This document shows positions 9,076-57,800 of a stretch of DNA of 64,000 bases, piece after piece. This stretch comes from Raillietiella orientalis (Eukaryota), in the NCBI GenBank assembly GCA_036172245.1, contig JAYWIR010000003.1, forward strand, positions 4,588,001 to 4,652,000. Reading direction: 5' to 3'. The notes beneath the pieces were generated by a model. The model was not told the DNA's origin, made no database searches, and saw nothing but the letters and a program-made list of their open reading frames with translations. Each line of letters starts with the position of its first letter. The stretch's first letter is position 1. The position numbers and the translations under genes are program-made.

Positions 9076-9254
9076 ATGTACTTTTGCCATATAACCTTTA
9101 CCTCCAAATAAAAGACCGGTTAATCTTTCCGTTGAAAACGTTGCAGATGTTGAAAAGCCATAATATCTATCTGGCAATAGTAAGTAATACGAAAAACACG
9201 AATTTACGTGAAGGTTTGCCGAGACAATAACGCTAAGCCCTAGAGTTTGCCTAG

Positions 9255-29800: not shown

Positions 29801-29895
29801 AGAAGCATTTCTACTTAAATCTTGCTTACCGTTGAACTTGGATCAATTTCAACTTCAAAAGATTCCTGTTGTAAGCTTCTTAATGTAATTTTCAT
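26815..29895 (-). CDS. RAD23: RAD23 UV excision repair / ubiquitin shuttle protein (UBL-UBA-STI1-UBA); introns 29765-29829, 27801-29685, 27552-27592, 27258-27303, 26926-26976
   Basis: [18 protein letters not shown]...[13 protein letters not shown]...[107 protein letters not shown] on minus at 26682-26687. Confidence 0.97.
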
Positions 29896-30968
29896 TGTAA
29901 CGATCTAGATAGTGCTTTTCATTTAAAATATCACGATTTCATTAATACAATGAGAACGATGTAACGTTTTATACACTCCGTCATGAGGACGACATGTAAA
30001 AAAATTTTTTTAAGATACTGAATTATAGCATAGGAAGTCTTTCGATTGAGAAATTAAACGAAGTACTCCTATCTGTTTCTAGAACAGTCCTGAAACAAAT
30101 GCTGATCTTCAATTATGGCTTTACAACTTATTCTGATTACCACGAACGTTGTTTGAAAACTTGCTTTTGAGAGTACTGTTTGCACTAGTAATGGTAAACA
30201 CGGTAATCGGCAGTTTCGTCATGCATCGAATCACGGAGTCGGCTACAAATTTACTGTGAGTTTCGCAAGACACGAAACACACCGACACATTTCACAGAAC
30301 ATATTCACTATTATCCTGGTGATTCCCAATTTCCGCATCGCAATATTCGCATCGCTTCCCACACACGAACGAACGTAGCCTCCAAGCGTGCTTTCACACA
30401 TTCGCCATTTTGCTGGCCGTCCCCGGTGCAGTCCTCGCGTTTTGCCACACCGCACGGTTATATAAAGTTCCACCCCCCTGTGAACTCGGGTCCCCAATGC
30501 ACTCCAGCTGGCCTCCCTCAGCTTCTTGAAACCCGGCCACCGAGGCCACGGCGTCTGAAACCCGGAAAAAGACACGTCCCGTGCATTCCTACGAGCTGCT
30601 GAAAATTCTGAAAATCTCGGGTCCTTTTTTTTTTTTCCCCTCGTAAACGAATCAAAGGGTATAAATAATTTATCAAGACGAGGCGGCGCATCTGGAGATA
30701 GAGATCCGTTTCCTAATGCTCTCAGAAGATGATGAAATGCTGTTTTTCCTTTTCGTCCTCACAGTAGTCATCCCGCCCATGCGAAGCAACCGATTTTTCA
30801 ACCTTCCCGCAAATAGGGAAACGCCCAAAATTTTCATCAGTTTCGTGAATTAGGGTTTGTCGAGTCCTTTCCTACGCTTTCCTACCCCATACCTATCATT
30901 CAACGGCTTCAAATTTCCTGAGGAATTTTTCCCCCCTTCAATAAAACTCGACAAAGAGTTTGTTTCTT

Positions 30969-30999
<31 letters not shown>

Positions 31000-36279: not shown

Positions 36280-36760
36280 TCCATTTGTGTTTCCGGCAGT
36301 GACCTTTTTTCCTTCAGGGACCTCCCCGCCCTTTGACGATTCACCGGGCAACTGGCTTTTCGTGGGCCAAAGCCCTGCCACTCCAGATGATGTTGGTGCC
36401 AACGGCGCTCACGAAAACCCACGTCAAGCCGCCACCCTGCAAGCCGAATCCCCTCAAATGTGTTCACACTCGGCACGGGGGCCACCCACCCCAAGGTGGC
36501 CACGTTTTGGGCAGGTCACCACTCGCAGCAACCGGCCGCCACACACGGACACGGGAATTGCCTTCTCGGGAGCTTTCCACTCGTTCCCCCTCGAACCGGG
36601 GAAGGCACGCACGAAATGCAACGGGATGGAGTCCGTCCACCGTGAATGCAGCAACCACAACCACCACAGACCGCGCCACGCGGAGCAGCCACGCCGCGCG
36701 CCACCCCAGTCGGCGAGGGTTCAACGTATTTTGCGGATCGGAATCATCTTCTAAACTATT
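36280..36760. promoter_or_regulatory. GC/CpG-rich island, putative promoter/first exon of the FoxN gene
   Basis: Isolated GC- and CpG-rich patch in AT-rich DNA, followed by ~3 kb of CpG-poor T-rich sequence ending in the acceptor ttttgtcccag (39797) just before the FoxN ATG. Promoter role is inferred. Confidence 0.45.
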
Positions 36761-39700
36761 GAGCCATTTTCCGATATCACTTCTGCAATCCAATAGTCGT
36801 ATTTGTAAAGAGTCATGTGACCTCTGTCCACCAATCAAAATTTTTTTTTTAAAATTGACATGTCTTTGTGTGACGGTTATCTCGATGTATACAAAATATT
36901 TCGATAACATGCTTTTTTGTTGTTGTTTTTTTCTATTTGTGTGAAATGTGTGTGGAAAAGTGTATTTTTCTCTGATTGAGTATAATGCAGAAAGCGTATA
37001 GATTTTTTGAAAATACAGTTAAAATTTACGTGGTGTCATTATTTGTCAGTTACTTTCAGCCGTTATTATTTTTCATAAAGAACATGCTGAAAATACAAAG
37101 TGAACCAATTGAGTAAAATTCGAATGTACCAGAGCAAACTGGAAAAGTGTATATATTTGAGGAAGTTTTGGTTTTGATAATGCCTACTTTCTTTATGTGA
37201 CTTGAATTATATTGCAGGTGGGTACTTCATTTAGTGATTAATTTTAAATGGGAGCATGTAACTGGCTGATCATGTGTTATTTATAGTGCATAACGTTCAT
37301 AACATTGGTAAAAGCAATGTTTCTTATGCTATCCAAAAATGTGTAAATAGTGTAATTTTTTGAATAGCATGAAAAGCTATTTTAGCAAAATATTCGTGCT
37401 ATTACTTAGTAAGGGGTAGTTTACAGTCAACATTGCAGCAAAACTTTCAGTGAATCAGTATTTGCACTGATTTGCATTTTTGCCTGCTGAAGTGCAATGC
37501 GATTGACTGTTTACTAATTTAAGTTGATTTGTTGCACAGCATCTAAGTTCACGCAATTTAAGTATTAGCATTCCAAAGAACATCAACCGTGAATGTTGCA
37601 ATAGTAGGAGAATGAAGTCCTGTATTGCAATGTTTTTTATGTATTATAAATTAGCATTATCGAATATGGTAAAACATGCGAGAGCATGCAGTTAATTTGT
37701 AGTATACTACAAATACATTTGCAATGTTTTTGTTCGTACACAGTGTGCAGAGCAGTGCATTTTTGGATTATAAATTTGTTTATTCAATTGTAGGTTCTCT
37801 AATTCGTCAGTATTATGAAATAAATACATAGTGAATAATATAGATAAGGTGTAGCAAAAATGTGGATAATGGAGAATCAGTTGTTCTAATTATCGTTGAA
37901 TGGTTAGTATGAAAAATGGTTTGTTTGTTTGGTTCTTCAGATTGAGAAATCTAATCTCAGGGATCATTTTTGGTATGAATCCGTATCTTTGTATCAGCTA
38001 GTGACTATAGTGATTGTTTCCATAAAAAACATGTTTCTAAATTCTATTGCATTTGTATTTATGTGATAATTTGCAGTTGTTAATGAATTGAATGAAATGC
38101 TTATTATTATCACTTTGAAAAAAAAAGGAAGGCGGTAGCTAATTTTTTGGTGATTTTGTTAAATGTTTGTCCTCAAACATGAAACTGTTAAAACTGTTTG
38201 TATGCAAATGTTTTGATGCCTTGAATTAGCAACAAATAAAAACAGGTTATCAAACTAATCTTAACAGTTTCATCGCAGTACATTTTCGTTTATGTTTTTG
38301 TTGTTTTGTTTTCAAAAACAGTTCTTTCTTAATAATATTGTTTCAAATGGGGTTGCTACATTGTATTACAATGTATTCAACAGCAGACTGTTTGTTAGAT
38401 ATAAAAATTCTTTTAATTTATAGTTTTATCATCAAATCTATTCAGATTGGAAGGTAAAATTTTTCAGAAATTCCAAAAGCCCATAACGCATGATCGTTGA
38501 AAATACCCTTTCCAGTGTCTGGGAAGTGCACTTGTATGCAATTGGAATGTCCTCTAACTTATTAGGTACAATAAACCAATCCTTGTATGGAAATTTTTGT
38601 TTGCATACGTCTGTGTATTAATTAGGTTCCGTTTAGCACTGCTATTTTAGAAGCAGAGTTGCTTAGAGGCAGTTTCACATCGCCTTTCCATTGAACTTGC
38701 AACTTTTCTACTTTCACAGCTGCTAGTTTGTTATTCTGCTGTTAATTGGCACATATGGGGATGTTTCCATTTTGCTTATGCATCTTCAGTCACTAAACAT
38801 TTGCTCATTTGTATAAAACTGCAATATATGCATGAGGATTTCTTTCAACATTGCTGATTTGGATTTCCAAATGATTTCTTTTTAATAAGCATGAGTAAAG
38901 CCTCATGAAATCATATTGATTTGCCTGTGCTCATAGTTTTCGTAATTTGCTATATTTGCTAGGTTTCAGATCATGGTATACCTTTTAAGTCAGAAGTGTA
39001 ATGTATGCTCTTGCTGTTTTCGTGGTGTAATTGATGAAATGTATGATTGTGTAAGTTCCTAAGATATTGGGCTTTTTGAAAATCGTTTTTCTCTAAATTT
39101 CCCTTTGTTTTACAGTTTGTTGTTTTTTCAGCTGTAATTTTCGTTTTTAATGTTTCTTTTTTATTGATTGCATATCATATCAGTGTTTAATAGAATTATT
39201 AGTATAGGGAGGAATCTTGAAAATACCACCAAATCTAACATTTGCTCAGTATTTTAGTTATTTGACAACTAGGAACAACAATCATATGAACAGGAACAAA
39301 CATTACCTAAGAAGCATTGAGAAGTGGTTGACAACCCAATTAATATTTTTCTTGTGCATATGTGCCTTCATAGTTGTGATTTAAATGGTATGAATGAAGA
39401 TAATTCATTTGATGTAAACGAATGTAATTTTTTCATACATCTGTATCCTGGAAAGTGCAGAATTTAGATTTAAAAATGTAAATCAAATTTAAAACCAGAT
39501 AAAAGTACATACGAAAATGCCCTTGAATTTTTGTGAAAACATTGAAAAATTACCTTGGTTAATCATATGTCGTTTTGTTTAAGTTTTAGGTGATTCTGAT
39601 TTGTTACATACAGCAGTGAGTAAAAGAGCACCATTTGTTTGTAACATTCTATGTTTGTTGATTATTGTTATCAGTAGTATTATACTTGTTACATAATTAG

Positions 39701-39817
39701 TCCAAATAAATTTTTCCCATCGTTGTAACTCATTATTGTGTTTATCTTGCTGTTAGCTCGACACTGGATTCTCCACACTGCTTAATTTTTGTCCCAGAGC
39801 AATGGCAGCGCTTTAAA

Positions 39818-41105
39818 ATGGACGTTTATGAAACTTTGTCCAATCCAGATACGCTGACCCTTCAGGAGATGTTGGACTCAGATATAAAGGCTGAATTTGA
39901 TGGTGCCTTCGAGGATGCGGAGTTGGGAGAGCTAGATCTCAGTCGTGAATTGGAGCGTTTTGAGCATATTGAAACTTTAGATGCTCATTTGGATATGGAT
40001 CTGGATACTGATTTGTTGCAGCGCACTTGGCTTAATGGCTCCTCCCACAGTTATCACAGCATGGATTTAGAAGCCACAGGCTTGCTTGTCAATCCTTCCA
40101 CAGCTGTGCCAGTTGGAATTAACTCCCATAAAGGAACCAAACTTAATCTGTTATGTGAATCACCACTTTCCAGTCCCAAAGTTACATTAGTCCCCACTAG
40201 TACTTCTTCTGTCATGCCATCTTTGTCTAAAATGTCTACACTTGTGCCAGCAACCAGTAGCATGCAGATGCAATACAGTAATGGAATGTCTTCATTGGCA
40301 GGAAGCAAAGTTCAGGTGAACAATAAATAGTTTGGGTGCAATGTTCTATGTTGCCATATAGGCATCCCCCAATGGTCAGAAGACCTTCCCCAAACCAGCA
40401 TTTTCATATTCTTGTTTGATTGCCATGGCATTAAAAAATAGTCGTTCAGGTAGCTTACCAGTATCTGAGATTTACAATTTCATGTGGTAAGTGAATACGT
40501 CAGTATATAACAATCATGAATGATATTGTAGCGAGCATTTTCCATACTTCAAAACAGCTCCAAGTGGTTGGAAAAATTCTGTCCGACATAATCTAAGCCT
40601 TAACAAATGCTTTGAAAAAATTGAAAAACCAGCCAATGGAGGAGGGCAAAAAAAAGGTTGTTTATGGACCATGAATCCTGATAAAATATCAAAAATGGAT
40701 GAGGAGGTGCAAAAGTGGTCTCGCAAGGATCCTGTGGCTATTAAACAAGCCATGGTCAATCCTGGTAAGCAAATTTATTTGTTAGGATGCTTTGCATGCT
40801 GCGAGAATAATGCAGATAATCTTGAGTTCTTGGAACGAGGAGAGCTAAAGATTGACTGTAAGGAGAGGCACACCTCTGGATCATTAGACAGTGAAGAAGA
40901 GGAGGAGGTAATAGTGCCTACATCACTGGAAGTGCTCAAGAGTGAATCTATCCTGGATGGAGGTGCAACATCTACTACTCTGGAGTTAGTGGATCTTCAT
41001 GGGAGTGCTGCTGTATTTGAAGCAGTGCAAGTGCAGTCATCTACAGGAGAAGTATATCCAGCCACTGTGCTGATTCGTCGCACGTGTGCTGAAACCGACG
41101 ACTGA
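39818..41105 (+). CDS. FoxN1/4: Forkhead transcription factor FoxN1/4 (jumu-like); introns 40316-40361, 40487-40531, 40765-40815
   Basis: [66 protein letters not shown]...[40 protein letters not shown]: a forkhead domain with the FoxN1/4-type C-terminal extension. Confidence 0.95.
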
Positions 41106-43306
41106 CCTCCTTCACATTCCTCAGGTTGATCTCACCACAAAGTACAAATTGCCATGCGAGACTGGCCACTGCTAGTGATCTTTGACCTAGTCGTTTTCAT
41201 GTGTGGAAGATAGTATTTAAGAGACTTCTAGGATGTATCCCTTATGTTGCATTGTATCCGAATGGGTGGGTTGAATTATGTACAAAGGTTTGCTAAATAA
41301 GCATCCAAACCACTGCCAGCCCATTCTTTGTATATTGCATTTGTATATGGAACTTTTGTTTTGTAAAGTGCACTCTTGACAAATAAATGCCTGTTTTTTT
41401 TATGCTTGGTTAATTCTACATTCCCAGACCCAAATCTGGAATCCTTACTAGCACTCACATCTTATCCTAATCGAACCAAACTAATTTTGTGATGAACATG
41501 AATATATTTATTCATCTATCTATCTATATATTTTCAAAACAGATGTAAAGCAAGCAAGATATAGACCAAATATAATAGACTTATGTTTCAAGCATCCAAA
41601 TGGTAGCATCGTAATTAGTATTTGACAATAACACCACTGCTCAAACGGTGGGTATGGCAGTTCTCAGGTGTCACGTTCGACACATCTGCGTGCCAAGGAA
41701 CTAATTGTGTACAAACGCAAGTACCGCATGGTCATCCCGATTTATCTCGTTTCGAGGGTTAAAACTTTCGTGTTTTCACTTTTACAAATACGTCTTTTAA
41801 CAGTTGATTTTTGTTTTGCGACTTACGTGATTAATTTGCGACCAGAAGCCTGAAGTTTCAGCCCACTTTGGTCACGTAGTTTCGCGTCCAGTTCTCCATT
41901 TGTTGTAGCATACGACAACGCTGCAAACAGCTTTTTCGGTGCTCATGCTGATATGATAGCACACTGCTGCCTTCATCCATCGTACCCTCGCCCCAATTCC
42001 AATCGTCTCCGCTCTATTGAAGTCTTGTAAACAAACGACCTTGCAGTTGTCCGACTTCAAACTGTTTACGGAGAACTCTTGATCACTCCTGATGAGACAC
42101 GGTGCAATTTGTGGAAGGAGTGTGACAGGGACGGGACGTAAGGACCGGGAAGGAATAATAGAATCGTTGAAACCAGGAATTCTGTTCAAGGATTTCATTT
42201 TCCTCCTACATTCGCAGTCCTGCCTATCAAAAGCCGTTTCTGACGTTTCCTGGTGCAAGATTACTGCACTATTTTATCTTTGCTGCATTTCTTTCAAATG
42301 TACTCCTACAGCTTTTACTTTCTATTCGTCAAGGTTATTGTATTCTAAAAGCAACCTTCTACTCATTTTCTTTTCCCAGGAAGAAAACGTCTGTTTTCTC
42401 AACAAGAGCGAATGAAAATGTCTCTATGCAAAGAATCATTCATTTGAAACGATATTTTTAATTTTAACAGATCAATCAGAAAAAAATTGCAATGCTTTCT
42501 GGAAAATTGATTGCATGATTCCTTCTAGCGATCTATAAATCCAATTCCTCTTTTTAGAAGTTCTGTGTGCAAAAGACACTAGCATACAATTGCTCATCAG
42601 CCAGTACACTGACAACGATTTCGAAAATTCAACTAAAATACCTTATTCTCATGAAATTATAATTCATTTTATACAAATGTTTGAAAACTCCTCATGAAGG
42701 TGCAAAAGGTTCACCTTTAAAATGAATCATGAACTCCATATCCTTGTTCTGCATTAAGCGTGGTAGATACGAGTTTCGACCTTCACTTTCACGTTTGTGT
42801 TGTAGATCCTTAACTTCAACGTGGTATTATATGAAATAGTCAGTTTTGCCTTTTTTAGTTCCAGTGGTGTAAACAAACTGAAAATAACCAAATCTGAGAA
42901 ACTGAGAAACAGAACTGAGAAATAAAAATGAATCAATTAGCTGCTAGCAGTTCAAGCATTCAACGAAAAAGTATGCATCAGGATGTTTTCCCACCGGCAT
43001 CATTATGTGAAACCAGGCACGTCGAGAGGCAAAAAAAGAGAATTGCATCCCTATTATTGCGATTGGTGTGTACAGACTGTTCCTAAAAAAAAAAATATCG
43101 CAATAATAAAACTGCAATGGGTCGAGCTGACTTCATAAACCCAGATGAGGTCACCAGTGGCAAAACTTGTGGGTGTATGTGAGAGCCCTGCAGCGCTTGC
43201 AGTCGTCCCGCAGGGAGATGGTGGGATGCGATGCTGCCTGCGGATGCAGCTGACCGGGACAAGTATTTGAATTATTAAATACTGATGCACGTTATAGCAA
43301 AATATC

Positions 43307-44988
43307 ATGGATCTGTCGATTCCGTCGCGTATGTGTTGTGATTCAAGAATTGAATGCATATCATACTGCAAGAACACAATCAAATTCGTCGAATCACTTT
43401 GCGTCCATGACATTAAGCTGAATCATGAACAAAGGACCCGTTTTGTCGAGTCATTGAAACGGACTGTGAAACATTTTAAGCATTCGTCGTCATCGGATCT
43501 GCCTTCTCTTGAAATTTACGAAGCCTTATTTGCGACGATGTGTGATGTTTTTCACTTATTTACTGCGAATCCAGCGATTTTAGATGATGATATTTTGAAA
43601 CTTTCCTTAAGACTTGTTTATATGTTAATGGATAAACGCAATTGGTATACAAAATATACCCAATCATCATCACATTTACATGTAAGATTACTGAACAGCC
43701 TCATGTATGTCACTAATCAGTTTCCTTATAATTTCTTTTTTTGTAATTGTGTGTACATCTATAAAGCAAGTTTTTATATTGCGAGTTTTTCTACCTTTAG
43801 TGCATTAACTGTTGCTCCAGAAGCCCCATATCTAGAAGAAATGGTGCTCTTAATTCAAAAATTGCTTGGGGAACCACATAATCATTCTCTAGAACTCAAA
43901 GAAGTCAAAAATCTTGGCAGCTTGCTATCAGTCCTTTTAGATAAAACAGTAGGAGAGAAAAATGATGTTCTGTAAGCTGACTTATTGCATTCTCATCTAT
44001 TACATGAATTTTAGATTACTATTCATAAATGAAATCCTGTGTTCTTCTCCATGCCTTTCTTATTTTTATGAATGTCTAAGCTGTGCTCAGAAAGCTGTGC
44101 TCCATAATCTCATTAATGCATTGTTGGACAGTGCCAAAAATTCAAGAGAAAACAACCTAGCTGCAATACATGAAGACAATGTTCATTTCTTGATTGATAC
44201 TTTTTTAAGTGAATGCAAGAATTTATCAACTTATATGAAGTTGTTTCAAGAATCCACAGAGCTTCAGAGGAATATGTCATTGTTGGTGGAGAGTTTGTCT
44301 TGCATTTCAGGGTGTGATTGGTTAGTAGGTATACTGCAGCACCATGAGACATTAATAGATGAAGTCATTGGTGAGTTAGAAAGTACTGCTATGGAAACTT
44401 TTCGTCAGATTTATTCTGTACCATTCATAACATGAGTAAGGATCCTGGAAATATATTTTCTGAAGAATGTTCACTAAAAGCTTTTCACTTGCTCCATCAG
44501 TCCTCCGATTCTCCAGTCTGGGGACTGAAAAGTAATATCCTCAGACTGTTGGCTAATCTTTGCTATGATTACCCTCAGGGCCAAAAAAAGGTATGATAAC
44601 TCATTCAGTGTTCCCTGTTGATAAAGTTCATTAGGTTTTAGATATGGGTGTTGTTCCTCTCATCATGGATTGCTGCCAAATAGATGCTAAGAATCCATGT
44701 ACTACTCCTTGCTTATTCTTCTCTTTGTTTATCAAATTTTGTTTGTAGATCTGCAGCAGTGGGCCATTTTTGCTATTCGAAACCTTTGCATGAATAATCA
44801 GCCTGTTCAGAAACTCATTGCTAGTTATTCTGTGGTTCTGGGAAACAATTCAAGCATGAAAAATGGTGGTTTCCGTGATGTGAGTAGAAATTTTATAGTA
44901 TTAGTATGCTTACTATATTCCAAAGACGATTCTCAAAGAAGATAATTCATGTGACCTATCAGAGAAACTCAGCTCAGTGAAGAAATGA
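43307..44988 (+). CDS. ATXN10: Ataxin-10-like ARM-repeat protein; introns 43705-43800, 43972-44014, 44371-44408, 44591-44634, 44699-44748, 44880-44925
   Basis: C-terminal GLKSNILRLLANLCYDYPQGQKKVLDMGVVPLIMDCCQIDAKNPYLQQWAIFAIRNLCMNNQPVQKLIA matches the ataxin-10 domain. GT-AG introns keep the frame. The start codon is less certain. Confidence 0.85.
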
Positions 44989-46495
44989 ACTGCTTGTAAA
45001 CTTTGTGAATTCTGATTTATTTGATTATACCTAACAACTGGAACCATTGCATTTGCCATTATACATAAAATTTACTTTGTATGTTTGTCCAGATAAAGCA
45101 GTTGGTAATAAAAAAATGTAGTTCTGCACAAGTAGGCACAACGGATTAAAGCAAACAATTCATTCTAATAGCATTTGTTTGTTAGTTTGCTTTGAATTTT
45201 GTATCCAAACTTCCGCCTTTCAATAAATTTCTGGCCTAATCATTATCAATTCTGCAGTCAGTGATTCATTATGGTTAGAAATGTTGTTGTTAGGATGAAG
45301 CATACACTTTTCTGTAGTTCTTCATCAAAAAGTCAGTTATCTCCTACAGAGAAATCTCAAATTTCCAGGTATAAAGAAATTTGTGGTTATGCAGAAAACT
45401 AAACTAAAAATCGAAAGTATTTTTTTTAACAAATCTCCAATATTCCAAACCTCTCCTACGATTGAGGCATATCTCCTGAATTTGTTTGTCTGCATAGTTG
45501 TGCAGTGTATTCCTGTTGTGCTTTTCCAGTACAATTTTCTTTGGCATGTGATATCAGATTTGACTTTAATCATGTGCAGGTTAGCAGAGTATCCGTAGTG
45601 ATCAAGGGGGGAATCCTCCTTTGGTTTTCTTTTTCCAGTAAGTCTCCCCCAATGACGTCTTCCATTCCCCTTTCTTATCATGCTCTAAGCAGGAAATGAA
45701 ACAACGAGTTCTGAACAGCGACTGCAGTGCAAGGCAAGAAAAAATATCCATGTTCCCACTTGGTTCCTGAAATTGTATTCATTTTGCAACCACATTTTCT
45801 CCTTCAGCAGTATAACCTTTTCGCTTGGTATGTTCCATTCAAACCGAAGCACCTGCCCACATCCGGTGAATCCATTGTGTTTATTAGCGTTTTCACACAG
45901 ACATCGAAGATGCCGAAGATAATTTTGCTGTCTGCCGGGTTTCCAGATGCTCGCCCAGTCACCGTCATAACGTTCTCCTCCTCCATCGCTCACCTCACGG
46001 CCACATGCAGCGGATCTCAAACTCCGATGCTCGGAAAAAAATGTCACTGTGCCGTGATGATTTCGCTCCATAACCTTTCACGGTTTCTCTTCGAATGCCG
46101 AGCACGCTATATGCTCGTTAATAAAACACCGCGAAAGCTCGGTCACCACGATGTTCCTCGATCACGCAGCCATCGGCGGGTCGTCACTCGTCAAGAGGTG
46201 AGTCAAATCTACGAATCCATTTGGGATTCGTGCACCTCCTCGGGCATCAACGAGACACGTAAAACGACAGGGACATCTGCACACGAGACGAGGTGGTGCA
46301 TCCGGTCAGGTCGGTGGACCTGGACGGGACTTGGTGCCACTTCCAAAAGTACTTTCTGGTGGTTCATCACTTTCGCACATCTCCAATTCTCTTTTATTTC
46401 ATGCACGAAACTGTGTGACCGATTGCTGATTACGGTTGCAGTAGTGAAGGTGCAAAATCAGAAAATTTCTGATTCCTGTCAAAGATTTCTGGTAA

Positions 46496-46633
46496 ATAGA
46501 CACAGACTTGGAGCTTGCGAGAAACGAGGAGGACAAAGACATAATGGAAGATTTAGTGACAGCAGCGCTCGAAGATGCCGTTAAAAAGGCAGAGGAAGAC
46601 CTGACAAATGCAACCTCTGATCTTGCGGGAACG
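46496..46633 (+). pseudogene. ybaB: Bacterial YbaB/EbfC nucleoid-associated protein C-terminal fragment (Rickettsiales/Wolbachia-like nuclear insertion)
   Basis: IDTDLELARNEEDKDIMEDLVTAALEDAVKKAEEDLTNATSDLAG carries the YbaB ID......D...LEDLV.AA..DA..KA.. signature. No start; preceded by an in-frame stop. Confidence 0.72.
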
Positions 46634-46682
46634 CAGCAAGGCAAGGAAAGAGCTCGAAAATGAAGTTCAAAAAAGGTTGAAA

Positions 46683-46799
46683 GATTATATTGAGCAAAAA
46701 TTTCCTATGCTTTCTCACGAAGAAGAAGTACGATTAGCAAGAAATTGGCACCAATAGAAAGATATTTCTTCTGCTCCTAAGTTGGTAGCCAGCCCCCAT
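46683..46799 (+). pseudogene. rpoH: Bacterial sigma-70 family region 1.2 fragment, RpoH-like (alphaproteobacterial), with internal stop
   Basis: DYIEQKFPMLSHEEEVRLARNWHQ*KDISSAPKLVASPH compared with the RpoH pattern Y...I.KFPML..EEE..LA..W....D..AAHKLVTSH. TAG at 46755-46757. Confidence 0.72.
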
Positions 46800-48049
46800 T
46801 CGACCAAACGGTGGATGGATGGGCAGGCACCCCATTTGAGTGGAAATTTTCGGTGAACTTCATCCGTTTCTTCTGCCTCGGAAAATCCCTTTTGTGATCT
46901 ACGTTGGAGAGCTTCATGTTCACCTCTCAGTTTCATTCTGCTTGGGGTGGGGGAGGGGAGGGGGGCAAAGTCAGGCAATTGCGTCCCTGAGCATGTGCCG
47001 CGAAGTGAGCTTCTCAGATTTTTCCCCTTCCCATGCTTTCTTTCCCCCGTAAATTCTTGTGAAAAATATTGGAGGAAACAGATTACAGAATTTATGCAAT
47101 TACCGTCAACTTACTTTTACTTCTAAAGTAACAATCTTAATTCACGATTTTCACTTCACCTTTCCTTTGTACTATCCTTCAACCAAAAAGTGCTGAATTC
47201 CTCTGAGATTAACCGGAGGGTTCGTGTGCAGCTGCCAGGGATTAACAGCATGGAGACCGTCGGAAAATCGAATTCTTTTAACGTTTGAAGGCCTCAAATA
47301 TTCATTTGCAGGAATGCTTTGGGAAAGAAACGTAAGAATCAATCCTGATTAATCCTTCAATGACACGCGAACCTCAAACTGTGGAAGATGTGGAGAACCT
47401 ATCACAGCCAAAGACCCACCGTGTTTGCCAGACCTTTTCAAGTCGTATTCTTTCCCCCGGACAAACTTGTTGGTTGTTCTGAAGTGGTCAGTTAGGGCAA
47501 GTACCACAACACAAAAATTCACAACTCTCTGCTGCATCAGCGTCCAATCAATTGCGAATTCAACACCCTATGACTTATCTTCAATCCCTCTCCTGTATGA
47601 ACATCTCGTAAAAATCCTGTGAAAATTTCAATGCAAAAGTACCATCGGGAACGAAACTAATTGAAGGCCCATATGGCTGAAGAAGGTTTCTTTCACAGAT
47701 CATCTCCGCAAATTTCTTTCAACCCAATTTCGTAGATTCTTGCGAGCTGCTGCAGAAGAAATTCTTCATCCACAGAAGATTGCATTTCTTCAATTGCAGA
47801 CACCTTTCACTGCAAAAAGTGCAGTCGTCTTCTCATTGAGGACTCATTCCCATCACACAGAAATGCAGTCTTGATCTGCGAATACTCGTGAAATACTGTG
47901 AGGGGAGGAAAAAAGTTCGAACTTGAAAACAGAGAAATACCACAAAAGGAAGAGTACTTCGTATATTAATTATAGAAATCCAACTTAAAGGTCTCTCAAT
48001 GTAGGAAGGCAATTTTTTCTGCTCAGTTGACATTGAAGCTCTTGTAACT

Positions 48050-48340
48050 CCGCATCGTCATGTGGCAAAGTTATCAAATAAACTGACGTCATAAGGCCTC
48101 GATGATTCGACTGATGAAACCTTCTGCGATAGTTATTTAAACAGTTCACACGGTGATGAAACTTTCTCTCTCACAGCTCTCACTCTGCCTCCTTCTACAT
48201 CGGCGCATCTGTTACCAAGTTCACCCATAAGCAGACTGCTATAAAGATACTTGGGAAAATCTAGGCTTTGGGATAATCCAATGTGTGTATTTGCAGTAAG
48301 GTTTCGTGCAAATTTTCTTTGAGGTAATTTTTTTCTTTCA
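48050..48340 (-). mobile_element. Decayed hAT transposase C-terminal dimerisation region
   Basis: Frameshifted minus translation IFPSIFIAVCLWVNLVT...SCER(E)SF...LNNYRR...FDNFA resembles FP.......LTLPVT.ASCERSFS.LK.IK.YLR...I..FA. Confidence 0.5.
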
Positions 48341-51300
48341 CTAGTTGAACCTTTACACAAGCGGAGGCATAGTGAGGAATACTTTACAAGGCACGTTAGC
48401 CCGCTACATGCCATTTTTGTTCTCCGTGCACGCCATTTTGAAAGAAGAGCTGGAACGAGAGTACGTCTCCCTTCTTTGTCACTAATATTTCAGTTGGGTG
48501 CGGCTGCATCTTCTTAGGATTTCAGGGAAGAGGTCATAACAATATCACAGGTCAAGGAAGCACTTCTGCCACTCCAAAAGTGCTTCCTTCTTCCCAACAA
48601 GTTGCTTTTCTACCGAGATGCTTTCAAATGCCGTACCTCTTGGCATCATATGAAGTTTCTACCGAGTTCGATGTGCACACACCAATGGTTCGAGTTTTGA
48701 TTTAAACATCCTTTCGTCTCCAGCTCCATACTTCCTCCATTTATAAGGTTCTTCGGTAAACTTCAGTAAACTCTCATCAATTCAATGGTTATATTGCATA
48801 ATAAAGAGTTGTAGAGCTGCAGAGTTTCTGAGCTTCTGGACGCTAATGCTTTCTTCGTTTTTGTTTGTTTGTCACTTTTTCCATTTTTTTTATTGTCCAA
48901 AACAAGAGGAAAAAAGAAAAATAGATATTCGATACGCTAATTGTCTACTCCCTTGTTTGGAAAGGTGACCATATAGTATTTTGACTTCGGATTTTATGAT
49001 TACTTTCGAGAATTCTTGTCCAAGAATACACCCTTCGAGTGGGCATGAGGGGTATTCATTACCCGTGCATCTTTGTGGATCATACTGATTCATTGAATAC
49101 CAAACGATCCTTCTCGCAGGCTGAGCGCGACGATCAGATCTTCGTGAGCGCGAATTTCTTTATTGCCGGCTAGCAATAGAGAAACACAGTGAATGCTTAC
49201 AGCCTTATTCTGCTTCTCACATCTTCGCCATCGCTCTCTGAATCAGCTATTCACATTCCCTGCGAAGCAGGAGCCCTGAAGTTACTTCATATATTCATTC
49301 CTAGCTTACTCTAAGTGTGGGCAAAAGCAGGGAAAAGTAAGGTGTTCATTTGACCGTTAAAAAAGAGCATCACACATAAACATCCCCAAATGCTCAAGGA
49401 GAAGAAGAGTCTTTTCTGTTTCGCAAGATGAGAAAGGGCAATTAGAAATTGAAAATGCTCTCTTTTCCCTGCATGGACTTTCCCTTAATACAGCACTTTA
49501 ATTGTTGCCTATATGGTGTATGATGCCTTGGCAGGCCTGACCATTTCGAGGAGTCATTTCGAAGAATGTACTACTGACGGTGCACTACGGTTACGCATTT
49601 AGCATGCACAAAAAAGTGCAATCCAGTTGCTGAATTCGTACCAAGTGTCTAAAGAAACTAACGAAGGGATGAAACAAGGACCCTTTCCTAGATCTTCGCT
49701 ACTCCCACTGAGACTGTAATCTGCAAATTCACATGCACAAGTCGATAATAACTCATAAAGACGCAAAAGATGACATGGTATGCAGGGGAGAGAAAAAGAG
49801 GATGAAAAGCATGATATTCTAAAGATCATGGATGAGCTGAAATGTTGACGGTTGGTGAGAAGTACAAACAGGACAGCGATAACGGAGAAACCTAGAGACA
49901 AAGTTCTTGAGGCCACACTTGAGCACAAAAAAGATACAGGGAAAAGATCAGGGACTTCCAGCAATTTTAGTGCCGGCTGGAACATTCACGTACTTAAGAA
50001 TAAAGACACAGCAAGCCATTACTCATCTTTACATTTCTCAAGAACTAGGCTAGAATCGCTGGCATAGGTTTGCCACCTCCAATGCCACGCTCGGCCTGCT
50101 CCGACTTCATTTAATGTGATCTCAATGTATGCCATCGAGTGCCTTTTTCTCCTTTCTACAGAAAAGTGGATAAAGGAAGGGCAGCAGCAGCTAACCGCTA
50201 AGCTGAACTTCATTTCTTAAGCAGTTAAAACTTGTTGCTGACTCACAATACGCGAGAAGACGTGAATTATAAGACTGATGAGAAATCCTAATTATACCAA
50301 GCAAAAAATCCATCTACAAACATAGTGTATTACTAAGGAAACCCCTAGCTGAAAAAAAAATAAGATAGTAAATGAACTAATTTTGCTCTGGTGGGAAAAG
50401 TGGAAAACCAGTTATAACTGGTTACAAAAAGGGTAAGCACTCCTCCATCATTTACGGTTTTGCATTCGGTAAAGCAGCTTAAGAAAATGAGCTAAAATAG
50501 AATTAGGACCATCTGTACGAATTCGTGTATCTTCTTCCCTCTGTGTACATTCTTTTACTCCGATCCCTTCACCAAACAGAGAAATCGATTATAGACCATA
50601 AATTACTTTCGATTTTACGATATTCGATGCAATTCAATCATTTGAATGTGAGAAGCCAGAGGATTTTTCAGTATTCCCAGTATTTAACCTGACTTAGTCA
50701 TTCTAGGATTCTAAATAAAAAGAAAAAATGAATGAGAACTGTCTATTACCATGCTCCACAAATGGAAGCAGGAATGCAAATCCTTAAAGAGCACTCTAAC
50801 ACTCCATTTTTATTCTTGAAATCAGATTTCCTGATAACTCTTGTATGCAAAGATATAAAAGCACCATGGCACCCAAAAAAGTATTCTTGTTCAATAGCAG
50901 AATATAAAAGTTAAGGTTAGGGAGCCTTCTAAAAAAGTACTAAGCTATTGCACATTGGAAGTATAACAGCTGAATAATCATAGGGAGGTTATGTAAGTTT
51001 GAAATTTTCTCATAATGCTTTGTATGAATCTTTAGGAATCTATTAAAGGCTGTTGGAGGCTTTGAGTACACATTGATTAGCATTTTTGGTCTCAAGCAAA
51101 GCATTTTAAAGATCGAGGGGAAAAATCACTAAAAAAAAAAAAGAAAAAAAAGGGAGTATTTATTTGACCAGGAAAACGTTCAAGAGCCTGAAATAAAGGT
51201 TTCAAACTTGTTTGAAACCAAAAAAAAAGATAACTTATATTCGTTAACCATGCTAGAAATTATTTATGAAGCAAAAATTTAGAAACGAATATGAAGGAAA

Positions 51301-51598
51301 GAGGAAAGCACTTACAATTCTGTGGGTGATCACAGAAAAAATACGCGTTTGTGTACGGTGATTCACCAAACCACGAATAGATATGAAATCATTTCCGAGT
51401 TTTCCGTTGCCTACGGATGTCGCACAAAGAATGAATGGACGAAATTTGTTAAAATACTCTAAGCAAAGCTGCCCCTGGATTTAACCACTTTACTACTGTA
51501 TGCATACCTCGACCCCTTTCAGCTTTAGATACGACCTGGAAAGGAAGTGAAATCCAAATTTCCTCCCGCCCACCTTGATGGAAATTCATACTTTTCAG

Positions 51599-52213
51599 AT
51601 GGAGAGGCTGCAGACTATTCACGAACTGAGGAATCAAGTGAATCTCTTGTCAGACTCTGACAACGACACGGATGGACTACCCTTGGGGCAAACAAAGTAC
51701 AAAAGCTATGGCAACTGGGAAAACAGGGACCTGGCTTCAGAAACCACACAAAACGAGAAATGCAATGTAGGAAAGCTAACACAACTCGTTCACGAGAGCA
51801 TGAAGACAAAAGAACAGAACGAAAGGGAGAAGCAGCAGTTGGCATGCAAAGTCCAGGAGTTCCGCAAACTCCTTGATAAAGCTAGAGCCAACTGCTACAA
51901 GCTGGAGAAGAACTTGGAGACCATCCAGGCAGCATTTCGCCACAAAGAAAGGGAGGTGGAACGCTTGAATGAAAAATGCGCGTTCTATGAAGATTTATAC
52001 AGAAAGAAGCACTGTGAATCGAAACTGTTGACGAACGAGTTGTTCAGGACCAGGGAGAAGTCCCAAAATCTCGAGAAGGAAGTCAAGGAGGCGAACGAAG
52101 ACTTGTGCGCGTTCCAAGATCACGTAGCCAACTTAAGCAAAGATATGGAATGCCGCCTGAAAGGCTCGAGAATTCCCGATTCGTACAAAGGAGTGCCGAG
52201 TCATAAGGAATAA
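51599..52213 (+). CDS. Uncharacterised coiled-coil protein (204-codon open exon)
   Basis: Long stop-free ORF rich in E/K/L with heptad character (KEQNEREKQQLACKVQEFRKLLDK...KEREVERLNEK...KSQNLEKEVKEANEDL). The ATG follows an acceptor-like cttttcag. No family recognised. Confidence 0.55.
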   Translation: MERLQTIHELRNQVNLLSDSDNDTDGLPLGQTKYKSYGNWENRDLASETTQNEKCNVGKLTQLVHESMKTKEQNEREKQQLACKVQEFRKLLDKARANCYKLEKNLETIQAAFRHKEREVERLNEKCAFYEDLYRKKHCESKLLTNELFRTREKSQNLEKEVKEANEDLCAFQDHVANLSKDMECRLKGSRIPDSYKGVPSHKE

Positions 52214-52553
52214 AAGAGTACCACCAGTCACAGTTAATCTACACGTCCCGATCAGTATTTATACAAAACAGGAGAGTTTCAAATGTACTCATAGCAGCCG
52301 AGTCGCCGTGCAACACCGAGTTAAGCCACTCACCAGCCGAAAACATAAAAGGGGCGTACAGAACGAAACCTCTCACAAAAATCCTCTGTACATTTCCCCT
52401 TACCTAGTGCTCTCTGCATTTTCGCAAAGGTGGAAATGGGCTTAATTGCTTTCATCTACATGCTTTCCACAGTTCAACTGATTTTCATCTATAATTAATA
52501 ACTGCTGAGATCCGAGTCCCCGACGTAACCACTGCCATCCTTTCTCTGCATTC

Positions 52554-52748
52554 AGGAACCTTTCAGATTTATTTCAAATTTCTCGCCTAAGCACTTACCA
52601 CTCATGTACAAAATTCTCTAAATTCCCTAAATCTGAAATTCACTGCCACCGCCAAATTTTGATTAGGCCGGTTCTAACGATGTCGTGACCGGATACGTGC
52701 ACTGCCAAGATGACCTACGCAGTGCTATGCCAGAAACCTCACAACTGA
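52554..52748 (+). repeat. Dispersed ~190-bp repeat, copy A (intergenic, CpG-retaining)
   Basis: Shares aattctctaaattccctaaat, ccaaattttgattaggc, ccaagatga and tatgccagaaa in the same order with 54673-54858. Confidence 0.9.
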
Positions 52749-53823
52749 CTCATCTGACTCTGGCATCCCACGAAACAAAAGGATGGGGCGGCCCCGCTCC
52801 GCAGCCACCGCATCCGCAACCCCGCATTGTTCTCGTGCTGTCAACGTGGGCATTTTCCACGGTGGCAAATTAAAAGATTCAGACCCTCAGCCGTCGGGAA
52901 GTCAGGGCGGCTTTGATGGGAATTCATACTTGCCTCATACCTGGCATTTAAAAAGCTTTATCTGACGTTTCTTACCGTATCCTCCTTTTGAAACACCGAG
53001 CGTCGCCTCAGTTTGAACTAATAATGCTAAGATACATGTTGAATCCCAAGGTAATGTGCCAGTAACCACGTTACGGGAAAAGTTGGGATTTTTTTCCAAT
53101 CATTATTGAATTTTCTTATTTTGTAAACTCAACTGACGGCTTCTCGTAATGGATGGGTCCTGCTTAATTATCTTGGAGTGGCTCTTGAGCTTTTTCACAC
53201 ACTGCCTGATGCCAATAAACTTTACACATCCGAAATGAATACTACGCATGCATTAAGGAGGATTTATGTTGAATCTTGCAAAGTCTGCTTACCAAGGTGG
53301 GCATACTGTTAAGGCCATATTTAATGAAAATTCTTTCAAATGTGCAAGCTAATCTGGCATAACCCAATCTCATGACTATATTAACTTTAATAGATAGAAA
53401 ATCTAATTTCCGATTTTAAATACTTTCAAAGAATTTACTTATTGTGAATAACGAAAATATTTGCTTTCATCCATGCTGAATGACAACTTGATTTGCAAAC
53501 ATACACTGAATGGATCTACAAAACAGACCCAATTTGCAGCTTCCCTACATAAATGGCAAATCAATCTTAGAATCTTTACATCATTCTATTTCTAAGGGAC
53601 CTGAAAATCAGGAGGAAATACAGCACAGGCCTTTTTCTTCTGAAACAGATCCTAAGAATCCACTGTGAAAGATGAGCAGCACAGCTCATTTTTCAGCTAT
53701 GGAGGAATCCCCCCTCCCACATCAACACACTCAAGCAAAACTCCGGATTATGAACACTCCCAGCCTTGGGAATTGTAATCAGTCTTGGCTTTGATGAACA
53801 GCAAATTGAATAAATGCGATAAT

Positions 53824-54527
53824 TCAGTTTTCTTGTCCATCTTCATCTTTCTCTTTTTGGGCTGCATCAAAAACTCAGCAACATATACTAATAAGATAAT
53901 TCCTTGCCTGCAATAACTCCAATTTCATCTTTACTAGGCTCATCGAAATTGGCCACCAATCGAGGCACTCCTTCTTCATCCTCTTCTCCACCAACTTCTT
54001 CACCACCACCAGGTCTAAGGGGGCCAGATGTCCCCTTGTTCAAGCCCTTAGGATTTGAAGCTACTGAAGCTAACTTCTTTAGCTGACTCAGACCATCTGT
54101 GCCAAAATTTCCGAGCTGACTCAAAATTCCAGGAAGCATTTCAGTAATTTCTGTCATAGTTAACCTAATAACAAATCCATTTATCAGTCCAGCTTACGTT
54201 TGCTTTCAGCATGACCAGTAATGGCAAACGTGTTTGCAGTCAAAGATGCCTGCACCTTGGGATTATTGAAATGGATCACAGCACCATCTTCCTTAATCAT
54301 GTTGACCTGAGTGAGATTAACTTTGAATTGAAAACCAAGAATTTTGTTCATTTACAGACCTCTTCAATGCCAGGAATTGTATTCACTGAAAGTTTCTTCA
54401 GTGAACTTTGTAGTTTCTTATCATCAGTAGTTGCTGTTCGGTGGATGACTTTTTTCTTTCTCCGAGCTGTGCCTTTTCCACCAATACGCACCTGTTCTTG
54501 CAACTTGTTCAGCTTTTCTTTATTCAT
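53824..54527 (-). CDS. BTF3: BTF3 / nascent polypeptide-associated complex beta; introns 54307-54359, 54151-54197 and a probable GC-AG intron 53862-53907 (otherwise stop at 53888)
   Basis: [106 protein letters not shown]...[16 protein letters not shown]. Confidence 0.96.
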
Positions 54528-54672
54528 GACAAGAACTAAAAATATATCTATGAAATCTATATCGCAAAGATGCATATAATGCATTCATCCTAATTATACA
54601 ACATATGATAAGCTATATAATAATGCTCTTTTATTATCCAAATACTTCTCATGGCATACAAATCATATACAA

Positions 54673-54858
54673 TGAACACTCCAGAATTTCAAATTTGATG
54701 CCTAGATATTTACTCTACGTACAGAATTCTCTAAATTCCCTAAATATAAAATTCACCGACACCAAATTTTGATTAGGCTAGTTCTAATGATATCATGACT
54801 AAATATGTGCACAACCAAGATGATGCATGCAGTGATATGCCAGAAATATCAAAACTGA
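54673..54858 (+). repeat. Dispersed ~190-bp repeat, copy B (probable BTF3 5' intron, CpG-decayed)
   Basis: Colinear with 52554-52748. Lies upstream of the acceptor (54536) that precedes the BTF3 ATG. Confidence 0.9.
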
Positions 54859-57800
54859 ATACCTAAAGTTTAGGTTTCCAAATACACCTTTACAGCTCAA
54901 CACTAACAATTTTTACATCGGGAAGCATCTACTTTAAAACCAAAGGCAAACGACACAAGTGCTTTGCAAATCCTTGGTGTGATACCCACAACTAATTTTG
55001 TCACTTTAATGACCACGCAATACCAAAAGTAAAGTATATTATATATGTTGAACTATGATCAACTGTGTATTATTTTCGATTCTGGCAAATTCCCGATGCA
55101 CGATCTGTCATCCTCAACCAGAAAGAATAACGGAATAATGGTACATGTGCAAAGCAAATATGGAAACATCTTAGAACTCACAAGACTTAGGTCTCTGGTT
55201 ATGAACAAAAGCTGGCTACTAAATAAAAACCTAAGCGACTTGACATATTTTAACTAATATTAATAAAATATATAATCTTGGCGAAGACAGTGCTGAAATT
55301 AATCTCCGATATGAAACTTCCACTTGCATGAGCGATAAAAATCCCATCCACCAATTCAAAAAAATACTTCAATTTTTTTGAGCCGCAGTAAAATAGCAGA
55401 AAACATGTGCATCAATTTACATCAGCATTTAAAAATAAAAACAAATCATCACATACCTGAAACCTAAAAAATTTTGCGGCACTTTGTTATGGAAAATATT
55501 TCTTAATATCCCATTTTTTAAGCTAAAATAGTAAACATTACGGAGAAAATATAAACAGCTAATCCTTACGTACACCACTACAGACTTTTATCTTTTGATA
55601 ATCAACACTCAAGAGCACTCAAACAATAGTACATGATCCGCACAAAATGTAACCATTTAAAATTTCACTGAATTTTCGCCACGACACAGGATGCAAATTA
55701 AAATTGAGGAACTTATTCCTGCTACAATTAACATCATAATAATCTTAAAACGAATCGAAAACGGAAAACGACAAATCTGCTGTGTCCAATAATGAAATAA
55801 TAGTTTTGCATTCCAACTCGCATACTACAACTCCAGCAGTTCCTTACATAACAGCGTGATCTTCACTTTTGCTCTCTTGATGGGGTTGCCAAATAAAAGG
55901 CAGCAAATGCATCATTTACTATGGTCTTTGTGTTCATGCCATTTACTATAAAAGAAACAGAAATGTATTCATGAACTCATGCTATCATTTTAACTGCAAT
56001 ACAAGAATTTCTGATATTTTAGGAAACTGTTGCTATGTGTAGTTGGTTTCAATAGCTGAACTACATAACATATTTATATTTGCACTGCAGCAGAGTGGCG
56101 TACGTGACTAAAATCAAAGCATTTTATCGACTTATTGCAGCAATAATAAGATGTAGTTTGATTATCAAGAGCAGCTATTACTCTTCAAATATTCGATATA
56201 TAGATCGTAAAACACAACTGCTGATTACTTTCTGCTGCGACAGATGAAACAAAGATACTCTGAATTATCCCAATAGAGTCGTTAATAATGTAATGCATTT
56301 AAAAGAAACACTAGAAAATAAACGAAAATTGGCATTACATGATCTACAAAAAAAAAAATAATTTTTTCAATGTGGCTATTACGAATGCATTATTCAGAGT
56401 CTTCATAATGCAGACATGATGCTAACAATCTTCAAGACTATGTTGTGGGTTCGTGGAGTTCACGGCAGCTACAGCATTTAACGAGGATTTTTAATACTAC
56501 GTTTCCTGTATCACTCATAATCAGCACAGAAAACAGATTGCCTTTATTTCCATTTGTGAGTATTCGCTCTAAATACATTCTTATTAGGTGTTGGCATAAT
56601 ATCCTACATCCTTCTATGTAGCATATCACGCAAGTTTAACCAAAGTACAGATTAAAGACACTCTCTGCGTTCTGATTCCTACATCTACTACATCAACATT
56701 CCTCACATCTTTGCAGATTCTTTAGTACCCATACAACGTTACGTGAATCATTCAAGGCAGATCAACTAGGAAAAAAAAAAAACAGCCTAAGAGAAATCAT
56801 TGTAGTTGACGATGTATAACACCCGCGGATAAGCGACTAGTCTTTAGTCCACGAAAAACAAGATCATATTAATCCACACTGTATCGTCAAATAAGACAGA
56901 CAGCCTTAGCTCACAAATCATGCCAATTATTTTGCCTCCTTGTGCTGATTTTTCTATTGCTTCGTTGCAATTTTAAAGAAAACCTTTTTTTTTTAACTCG
57001 AAATTCTGTTTATTCATTAATTTCAATTATTCTTCCTCATCGTGAAGTCTCTCTCATCCTTTTCCATAGGAGATAGAAGTTGGAATAAGATTCGTGTCTC
57101 CATATCTGAAGTGCAACTGATTGAATACACTCAATCCTTCTCATAGATGGCGAGCACGTAATGAGGAAAACTAAAATTCTGTGAGACCTATACGCATCAA
57201 GCAATGTGATGATGCTGCAAACAAAATTCAGAAATTTCTCATCATGTATCACAAAAGAGGCTTCAAAACCTCATCGGAAAATGTTCAGCTAAGGTGTATC
57301 TGTACACAACCCCTTCAAGTACCTATTTGTACATTATTAGAAAGCGAGTTGCAAATCATTGCATCTCAGACACCTTAGCCCTCAAAGATAAACTCATGTG
57401 CCGTCCAAAAACCATATACAAGTAGGTGTGAGGCTAACGTTGGTCAAAGTAAGCAAAGTACGAGCAAGACTAAAAAAAAAAAGGGCAGCCTTTGGAAATA
57501 TACTCACAAACTTCCAAAAGGGGATGCAAGTTTTGCATCATAACATTTGCGAATTTTCAGAAGAACTGAGGTTGGTAGCACCCTAACAAATGTATAGTCA
57601 GATGTTTTTCCTTTGTTATTCTTTTTATTGGTCATGAGATACTTTTGTCATTTCTACATGTGTGTCTGGGGTAATTCACCGTATCATCCACCCCAAAACC
57701 AATTTCATCAATTCTAAAACGAACTCCTACTAAATGAAGCTAGTGGAGGAGTTACAATTTCTATTTATTCTCAGGGAATGGAATGATTTTCCTTTTGAGT

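What the first reader, a model, noticed from the sequence alone, without database searches (positions are those of the whole stretch)
46430..46800. Patchwork of bacterial gene scraps (ybaB/ebfC then rpoH) in the animal chromosome
Seen: within ~300 nt and on one strand, a YbaB/EbfC C-terminal piece, a short linker (ARKELENEVQKRLK) and an RpoH-like region 1.2 piece with a nonsense codon. None of this appears in the ORF track. Known: both are bacterial families, and the end of ybaB would not normally run straight into the interior of rpoH. From memory the residues look Rickettsiales/Wolbachia-like, which needs confirming. Inference: an old endosymbiont-to-nucleus transfer assembled from short non-contiguous fragments or collapsed by deletions. 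It records a past infection, and more scraps may be hidden nearby.
Basis: partly seen in the sequence, partly recalled or inferred. Interest (0 to 1): 0.72.

Follow-up and report, generated by a model that had tools for sequence, protein, structure and literature searches.

The report
Three-piece Wolbachia scar in animal DNA
A 292-base stretch between ordinary animal genes is made of three broken scraps of DNA from the bacterial symbiont Wolbachia joined end to end, most likely a dead scar left when a chromosome break was patched with symbiont DNA.

Summary
Confirmed. ybaB and rpoH lie about 1.4 kb apart around wsp in 40 of 53 Wolbachia genomes; the middle gene lies inside that interval in 0 of 13. 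The insert is decaying: a stop codon, a frame break, and pN/pS 0.6 against 0.12 among Wolbachia. It is one of roughly 700-1,000 such pieces in this genome (rough extrapolation). Another site (C32) chains 10 pieces of 39-272 nt, with junction overlaps above chance (P 4e-4). Best reading: a non-functional complex nuclear Wolbachia transfer, made by end-joining of short symbiont fragments, like complex numts/nupts. No reads spanning the junctions were available. This scan already noted the same patchwork pattern on other DNA of this genome. New variant of a known kind; moderate interest.

The parts
46501..46629 (+). Piece 1: 3' part of Wolbachia ybaB/ebfC, lacking its 5' half and last 11 codons; one extra codon at about 46532-46534; weak extension left to 46494
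   Evidence: PF02575; 86% nt to G042 and G035, matched in 53 of 60 Wolbachia genomes; alignments
46626..46694 (+). Piece 2: internal scrap from the 5' part of an unnamed 841-aa proline-rich Wolbachia gene; firm core 46638-46694, extension to 46626 needs a 9-nt gap
   Evidence: 91% over 56 nt to G002:C62, E 8e-16; 92-95% over 44-52 nt to G006, G031, G042; matched in 13 of 60 genomes; gapped alignments; no Pfam family over cut-off, no usable Atlas hit
46694..46792 (+). Piece 3: region 1.2 of Wolbachia rpoH (about codons 23-55), no start, with a premature stop
   Evidence: PF00140; 89-90% nt to G042, G031, G015, G035; matched in 57 of 60 genomes
46755..46757 (+). Nonsense codon in the rpoH piece
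   Evidence: 0 of 21 Wolbachia rows have a stop in this segment
46626..46629 (+). Junction 1: 4-nt overlap shared by the ybaB donor and the piece-2 donor (one of the four bases differs in the host); holds only if the 9-nt gap in piece 2 is accepted; changes the reading frame, and the ybaB frame stops at 46661-46663
46694..46694 (+). Junction 2: 1-nt overlap between piece 2 and rpoH, in frame
44691..44942 (+). Host context: exon with the ataxin-10 domain, about 1.6 kb upstream of the insert; the insert lies in non-coding, locally GC-rich DNA (0.49 left, 0.53 right, against 0.34 further left)
   Evidence: PF09759 E 3.5e-6; no other Pfam hit of note in 82 frames of 41500-51500; GC values
9134..9213 (-). 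Separate single Wolbachia scrap (HAD-family hydrolase gene), 37 kb away
   Evidence: 90-93% nt in 5 of 5 genomes searched and L084; donor gene PF13419

Best explanation
A non-functional complex nuclear Wolbachia transfer (nuwt). In the germline of an infected ancestor, Wolbachia DNA broke into short fragments; three were joined to each other and into a host chromosome break by end-joining that favours overlaps of a few bases, and the insert has since mutated without selection. Shown: Wolbachia origin of all three pieces, their donor positions, the base-level joins, decay. Inferred: the join happened before or during insertion (the filler is itself Wolbachia DNA and no second host copy of it was found); the ybaB and rpoH pieces came from one donor molecule whose wsp-bearing middle was lost; the enzyme (polymerase theta or classical NHEJ) is not determined.
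For: Three donors tile 46501-46792 with no unassigned base if the 9-nt gap is accepted, 8 unassigned bases otherwise. ybaB and rpoH are within 3.5 kb, same strand and order, in 40 of 53 genomes; the middle gene is inside that interval in 0 of 13 and 161 kb away in G035. Chance of such collinear closeness among three random pieces is 0.002. pN/pS to the nearest relatives 0.59-0.61 against a pooled 0.12 and a maximum of 0.29 in 209 Wolbachia pairs; 14 bases of 219 seen in no Wolbachia row, against 0-8 (most 0-3) for Wolbachia rows left out in turn. The same build at C32: 10 pieces, scattered donor places, both orientations; overlaps 4,5,2,3,2,0 at six junctions against a null mean of 0.74, P 4e-4. 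The host holds Ku and POLQ-type helicase domains. Published parallel: complex numts/nupts with 1-7 bp microhomology or blunt joins, formed before or during integration (PMC6215612, passages).
Against: No read or contig bridging the insert was seen. The window's own junctions are weak: 1 nt, and 4 nt that depends on a gap and carries a mismatch. One genome (G058) has the middle gene 2.9 kb downstream of ybaB on the same strand and another (G006) 19 kb away, so an unsampled donor could have had the three genes close together. Overlap lengths were read by eye against relatives of the donor, not the donor. The pN/pS rests on 25-26 differences and is still below 1. No empty host site was available for comparison.
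Confidence: 0.7

Rival explanations
1. One contiguous Wolbachia segment from a donor with the gene order ybaB - middle gene - rpoH was inserted whole and later collapsed by two deletions at short overlaps.
For: All three pieces are on the coding strand. Gene order around ybaB is labile: 9 of 53 genomes have ybaB and rpoH apart on one contig, and G058 has the middle gene 2.9 kb downstream of ybaB in the same orientation. Fragmentation of larger inserts is proposed for Arsenophonus DNA in bed bugs (bioRxiv 10.64898/2026.07.17.739188, passages).
Against: 0 of 13 genomes show that order; the closest relatives (G042, G031, G035, G002) keep ybaB and rpoH 1.4 kb apart with the middle gene elsewhere; G058 is a poorer match (82, 87, 84%) and has rpoH far away. 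The C32 chain, with pieces from 74 kb to 1.35 Mb of G035 in both orientations, cannot be explained this way.
Confidence: 0.18
2. Two events: a ybaB-wsp-rpoH fragment was inserted first; a later break inside it was repaired with loss of 1.4 kb and capture of a new Wolbachia scrap.
For: Explains the collinear outer pieces and the foreign middle directly. The middle piece has the highest identity (91-95% against 86% and 90%), and identities genome-wide run from 63 to 99%, so transfer happened more than once.
Against: The identity difference rests on 44-56 nt and falls if the gapped extension is included. It needs a second break in the same 1.6 kb. In rice no recurrent insertion was found for mosaic inserts (PMC6215612, passage).
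Confidence: 0.07
3. Artefact: a chimera made in library amplification or assembly from DNA of a living Wolbachia in the sample.
For: No reads bridging the insert were seen. Chains of short pieces are a known product of whole-genome amplification (own knowledge).
Against: A living strain would not carry a stop in rpoH or pN/pS 0.6. The two ybaB copies in this assembly agree at only 103 of 123 bases and share none of their private changes. No rpoH gene matched TIGR02392 in the assembly. The site is inside a contig of at least 6.96 Mb.
Confidence: 0.04
4. The insert has been co-opted, as a short fused peptide or as a regulatory element of a neighbouring host gene.
For: Pieces 2 and 3 are in frame; the insert lies in a GC-rich island and its private changes run AT to GC 11 to 1 (P 0.02).
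Against: Frame break at junction 1, stop in rpoH, open frames of only 55 and 50 codons, raised pN/pS. A GC drift fits neutral adjustment to the surroundings; on all 24 such differences to G035 the bias is not significant (P 0.11).
Confidence: 0.01

Closest known systems
Nuclear Wolbachia transfers (nuwts) in Brugia malayi (PMC3849323; passages) and other filarial nematodes (PMC12693587; passages)
   Same: Short Wolbachia gene fragments in host DNA, mostly 100-200 bp in Brugia (median 168 nt for the 42 low-copy pieces here), enriched between genes, with a spread of divergence; hundreds per genome.
   Different: The passages I saw describe single fragments or near-contiguous regions; 'mosaic' does not occur in PMC3849323, and 'adjacent', 'rearrange' and 'chimer' do not occur in PMC12693587 (main texts only). 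Here distant donor loci abut with 0-5 nt overlaps.
Fossil Wolbachia insertions of Dictyocaulus viviparus (PMC4046930; passages)
   Same: Short disabled fragments with nonsense codons, used as a record of infection; donor there is clade F-like.
   Different: Here some pieces elsewhere in the genome are 98-99% identical to a living strain, so infection may be recent or current. My tree groups the pieces with L003, L005, L006, L010, L014, G015, G031, G035 and G042 at weak support (83/77); that some of these are supergroup F is recalled, not tested.
Complex numts/nupts and mosaic organelle insertions (PMC6215612; passages)
   Same: Several fragments from different donor places and orientations at one site, joined blunt or at 1-7 bp overlaps, formed before or during integration.
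   Different: Donor is a free bacterial endosymbiont, not an organelle; pieces here are 39-272 nt, whereas the examples in the passages are hundreds to thousands of bases.
Arsenophonus remnants in bed bug genomes (bioRxiv 10.64898/2026.07.17.739188; passages)
   Same: Dispersed, clustered, non-functional symbiont gene scraps.
   Different: Explained there by fragmentation of larger inserts; 'mosaic' and 'microhomology' do not occur in that text.

Membership tests
Nuclear Wolbachia transfer (nuwt) | Closest relatives are Wolbachia | tested here: met
   For the C32 ybaB piece the top 22 of 80 GTDB loci are Wolbachia or Rickettsiales MAGs at 73-94% aa, the rest at most 64%; the window pieces match these loci at up to 85-89% nt, and only one other bacterium passed E 1e-3 (75% over 69 nt); both protein hits at 81%.
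Nuclear Wolbachia transfer (nuwt) | Embedded in host nuclear sequence in the assembly | tested here: met
   Flanked by animal genes (ataxin-10 domain, forkhead, hyccin, PSMD6) in G000:C3.
Nuclear Wolbachia transfer (nuwt) | Junctions supported by raw reads or PCR | tested here: inconclusive
   The only listed run (X1) gave four 151-nt records identical to the flank at 44580-45467 and none on the insert.
Nuclear Wolbachia transfer (nuwt) | Decay relative to living Wolbachia | tested here: met
   Stop codon, truncations, pN/pS 0.59-0.61 against 0.12.
Complex (multi-fragment) insertion made by end-joining | Fragments from different donor places abut within 10 bp | tested here: met
   Window: 2 of 2 inner junctions. 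C32: 6 of 6 junctions examined, of 9 in the chain.
Complex (multi-fragment) insertion made by end-joining | Microhomology or blunt joins | tested here: met
   Pooled excess over random joins, P 1e-4 to 2e-3 depending on how junction 1 is scored; the window's two junctions alone prove nothing.
Complex (multi-fragment) insertion made by end-joining | Empty orthologous site showing a single insertion at a break | not testable with these tools
   G000 has no relatives held.
Functional horizontally transferred gene | Intact frame under purifying selection | tested here: not met
   Frames of 55 and 50 codons, stop codon, raised pN/pS.
Transposon-type insertion | Target-site duplication | tested here: not met
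   Longest word shared by the two flanks is 4 nt and not at the edges.

The most novel reading that the evidence does not exclude
This host routinely shatters Wolbachia DNA into 40-300 nt shards and ligates them into chains at microhomologies before sealing chromosome breaks, so its short nuwts are born short and shuffled, not worn down. Shards may be drawn in part from one donor neighbourhood (window: 1.4 kb apart; C32: 4.6 kb; C25: 7.6 kb; C10: adjacent and inverted), like local shattering and re-ligation of a symbiont chromosome piece. In line with this, 6 of the 7 pieces at 94% identity or more are under 70 nt, while none of the 10 pieces over 300 nt exceeds 90% (short diverged pieces escape detection, so this is only suggestive).
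Probability: 0.3. Interest if true: 0.62.

Novelty: new variant of a known kind. Interest (0 to 1): 0.38.

Why it matters
The locus itself is dead DNA. Its value is as a record: it shows a Wolbachia infection of this lineage, and its joins show how symbiont DNA enters a nucleus. If multi-shard chains are the usual form here, hundreds of junctions in one genome make the entry mechanism (microhomology joining against blunt ligation; shuffling at insertion against later decay) directly countable, and short nuwt length could not be read as age. Screens with strict cut-offs (E 1e-30 in PMC12693587) would miss most 50-nt shards.

Tried and rejected
Read support: one run listed, no RNA holder listed; it did not cover the insert, which is no evidence either way. 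Linker as a remnant of the skipped wsp interval: rejected, no match of that interval at the insert. Linker copied from another host-resident copy: none found (short diverged copies could be missed). More bacterial DNA in the flanks: none at E<=0.001 for 46300-46493 and 46795-46950 or elsewhere in 40001-60000 (16 genomes); 20001-40000 gave one marginal 37-nt hit in 1 of 16 genomes (E 7e-4); 58390-58452 (E 0.015) is at control level; a translated search with 1,783 G035 frames found only the two known sites. Loss of classical end-joining as the cause: not supported, Ku domains are present; the ligase IV search was uninformative because its control rang nowhere; the POLQ-type hits do not separate POLQ from HELQ. 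Naming the middle gene: no family. Placing the host: PSMD6 is 68-78% to many animal groups and insects share only 76% among themselves, so it does not discriminate; my notebook remark of a 'divergent lineage' is withdrawn. The rpoH codon counts used a wrong frame and are discarded; one search is the corrected run. Other hit sites (C10, C25, C34 and more) are known by coordinates only; their DNA was not read. Whether shards come from local donor neighbourhoods more than chance was not established: 1 such pair among the 20 pieces of the two stretches without ybaB.

Full report
Observation. The pieces are at the stated place on the + strand. The YbaB piece and the sigma-70 region 1.2 piece pass their Pfam cut-offs, and NCBIfam names YbaB/EbfC and RpoH. 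The window is G000:C3:4588001-4652000, in an animal assembly of 210 Mb and 491 contigs. The insert lies about 1.6 kb past an exon with the ataxin-10 domain; among 82 reading frames of 41500-51500 only that exon, the two bacterial pieces and one weak DUF hit matched Pfam.

Origin. A second ybaB scrap in the same genome (C32, locus L002) was used to scan GTDB: the top 22 of 80 loci are Wolbachia or Rickettsiales MAGs. Against 60 genomes of that genus, window 46501-46629 matches ybaB in 53 (best 86%), 46694-46792 matches rpoH in 57 (best 90%), and 46638-46694 matches a third gene in 13 (83-95%) (only 9 candidates were scored per genome, so the last count is a lower bound, and G035's copy turned up only). 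The third gene is an unnamed 841-aa proline-rich protein downstream of an amino-acid symporter-like gene (that label is recalled), with no family assignment. A 123-nt ybaB tree places both host copies in an open group with G035, G042, G015, G031, L003, L005, L006, L010 and L014 (support 83/77); this is too weak to name a supergroup.

Donor layout. In Wolbachia the order is dnaX, ybaB, a surface antigen gene (PF01617; wsp by recalled sequence), rpoH. The two outer pieces are 1,388-1,429 nt apart in seven loci and within 3.5 kb, same strand and order, in 40 of 53 genomes; 9 have them apart on one contig and 4 on different contigs. In the host they are 64 nt apart. Three random pieces would show such collinear closeness with probability 0.002, so the outer pieces probably come from one molecule. 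The middle gene lies inside the interval in 0 of 13 genomes and is 161 kb away in G035. Against my reading: in G058 it lies 2.9 kb downstream of ybaB on the same strand, and in G006 19 kb away; both are poorer matches for ybaB and rpoH, and neither has the host's order.

Junctions. Junction 2 has a 1-nt overlap and is in frame. At junction 1, allowing a 9-nt gap in a length-variable part of the middle gene extends it to meet ybaB at a 4-nt overlap shared by both donors (two donors give this alignment, three others do not reach that far); otherwise 8 nt are unassigned. There is no target-site duplication.

Decay. Both ybaB and rpoH are cut at both ends; the ybaB frame stops at 46661 and the rpoH piece has a stop at 46755 found in 0 of 21 Wolbachia rows. 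pN/pS to the two nearest relatives is 0.59-0.61 (0.18-0.48 to the other 19, where strain divergence dominates), against 0.12 pooled and at most 0.29 among 209 Wolbachia pairs. Fourteen of 219 bases occur in no Wolbachia row. Eleven of these are AT to GC and one the reverse (P 0.02; P 0.11 on all differences to G035), in keeping with the GC-rich surroundings. The two host ybaB copies agree at 103 of 123 bases and share no private change, so they are independent transfers. No match to the rpoH family model was found in the assembly, which may have had symbiont contigs removed.

Genome-wide pattern. One more scrap lies at window 9134-9213. The C32 site is a 939-nt chain of 10 pieces of 39-272 nt (one rests on E 1e-4 in a single genome); 8 map to G035 at scattered places in both orientations. 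At the six junctions for which both donors were in hand, exact overlaps read by eye were 4, 5, 2, 3, 2 and 0 nt, against a mean of 0.74 for random joins: P 4e-4, and 1e-4 to 2e-3 with the window's two junctions added. Three 20-kb stretches of G035 searched against the host gave 44, 39 and 29 matches. After setting aside multi-copy donor sequence, 22, 11 and 9 remain (9 of the 39 rows, all at one repeated query position, were left out before the count). That extrapolates to about 1,000 pieces, or about 730 from the two stretches without ybaB. This is rough: hits go down to 63% identity and were not checked one by one.

Mechanism. The best reading is capture of short Wolbachia fragments by end-joining, before or during repair of a host break, followed by neutral decay. 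Origin, donor positions, joins and decay are shown; timing and enzyme are inferred. The host has Ku and POLQ-type domains, so neither pathway is excluded. Rivals are collapse of a segment from a differently ordered donor (0.18), a two-step history (0.07), artefact (0.04) and co-option (0.01). The main gap is read support: the one listed run did not cover the insert.

Comparison. Nuwts are well known (PMC3849323, PMC12693587, PMC4046930; passages read), and multi-fragment inserts with microhomology are well known for organelle DNA (PMC6215612; passages). Four searches of the held library for mosaic or end-joined Wolbachia inserts (listings and abstract openings only) showed no paper describing chains of about 50-nt Wolbachia shards; subscription journals are mostly missing, and I saw no supplements, where such cases could be tabulated. 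Searches were searches on the mechanism (listings only, apart from PMC6215612). This scan had already noted the same patchwork pattern at other sites of this genome; those are unchecked AI notes and not independent support, and my reading was on record before I saw them.

Verdict. Real, Wolbachia-derived, non-functional; a new variant of a known kind. The single locus is ordinary; the genome-wide habit of stitching tiny shards is the part worth a systematic count. Interest 0.38.

Noticed in passing
L002:936-1874 (G000:C32): Chain of 10 Wolbachia pieces of 39-272 nt from scattered donor places, including an element with 30 copies in G035 and a ybaB 3' half intact to its stop codon.
   Followed up: yes
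window 9134-9213: Single 80-nt scrap of a Wolbachia HAD-family hydrolase gene, 90-93% identical.
   Followed up: partly
G000:C25:1606265-1606457: Two pieces 98-99% identical to G035, 60 nt apart in the host and 7.6 kb apart, order reversed, in the donor: a very young patchwork; DNA not read.
   Followed up: no
G000:C34:2032016-2034842, C35:117364-119579, C6:36031-45674, C56:13457-23655: Longer, more diverged Wolbachia-like blocks (63-90%), partly collinear; C34 and C35 begin at nearly the same donor position.
   Followed up: no
G000:C10:682369-682722: Two adjacent donor pieces in opposite orientation, 41 nt apart in the host.
   Followed up: no
G000:C5:3770343-3770789 and 3792661-3793107: Two Ku-domain matches with identical score in inverted orientation 22 kb apart: a recent inverted duplication or an assembly duplicate.
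   Followed up: no
window 45300-46100 and 47650-47900, - strand: Stretches that look like exons of further host genes on either side of the insert; no Pfam match, not identified.
   Followed up: partly
G058:C1:1559645-1563172: In this Wolbachia the unnamed proline-rich gene lies 2.9 kb downstream of ybaB and rpoH is elsewhere; the ybaB-rpoH interval is broken in 9 of 53 genomes.
   Followed up: partly
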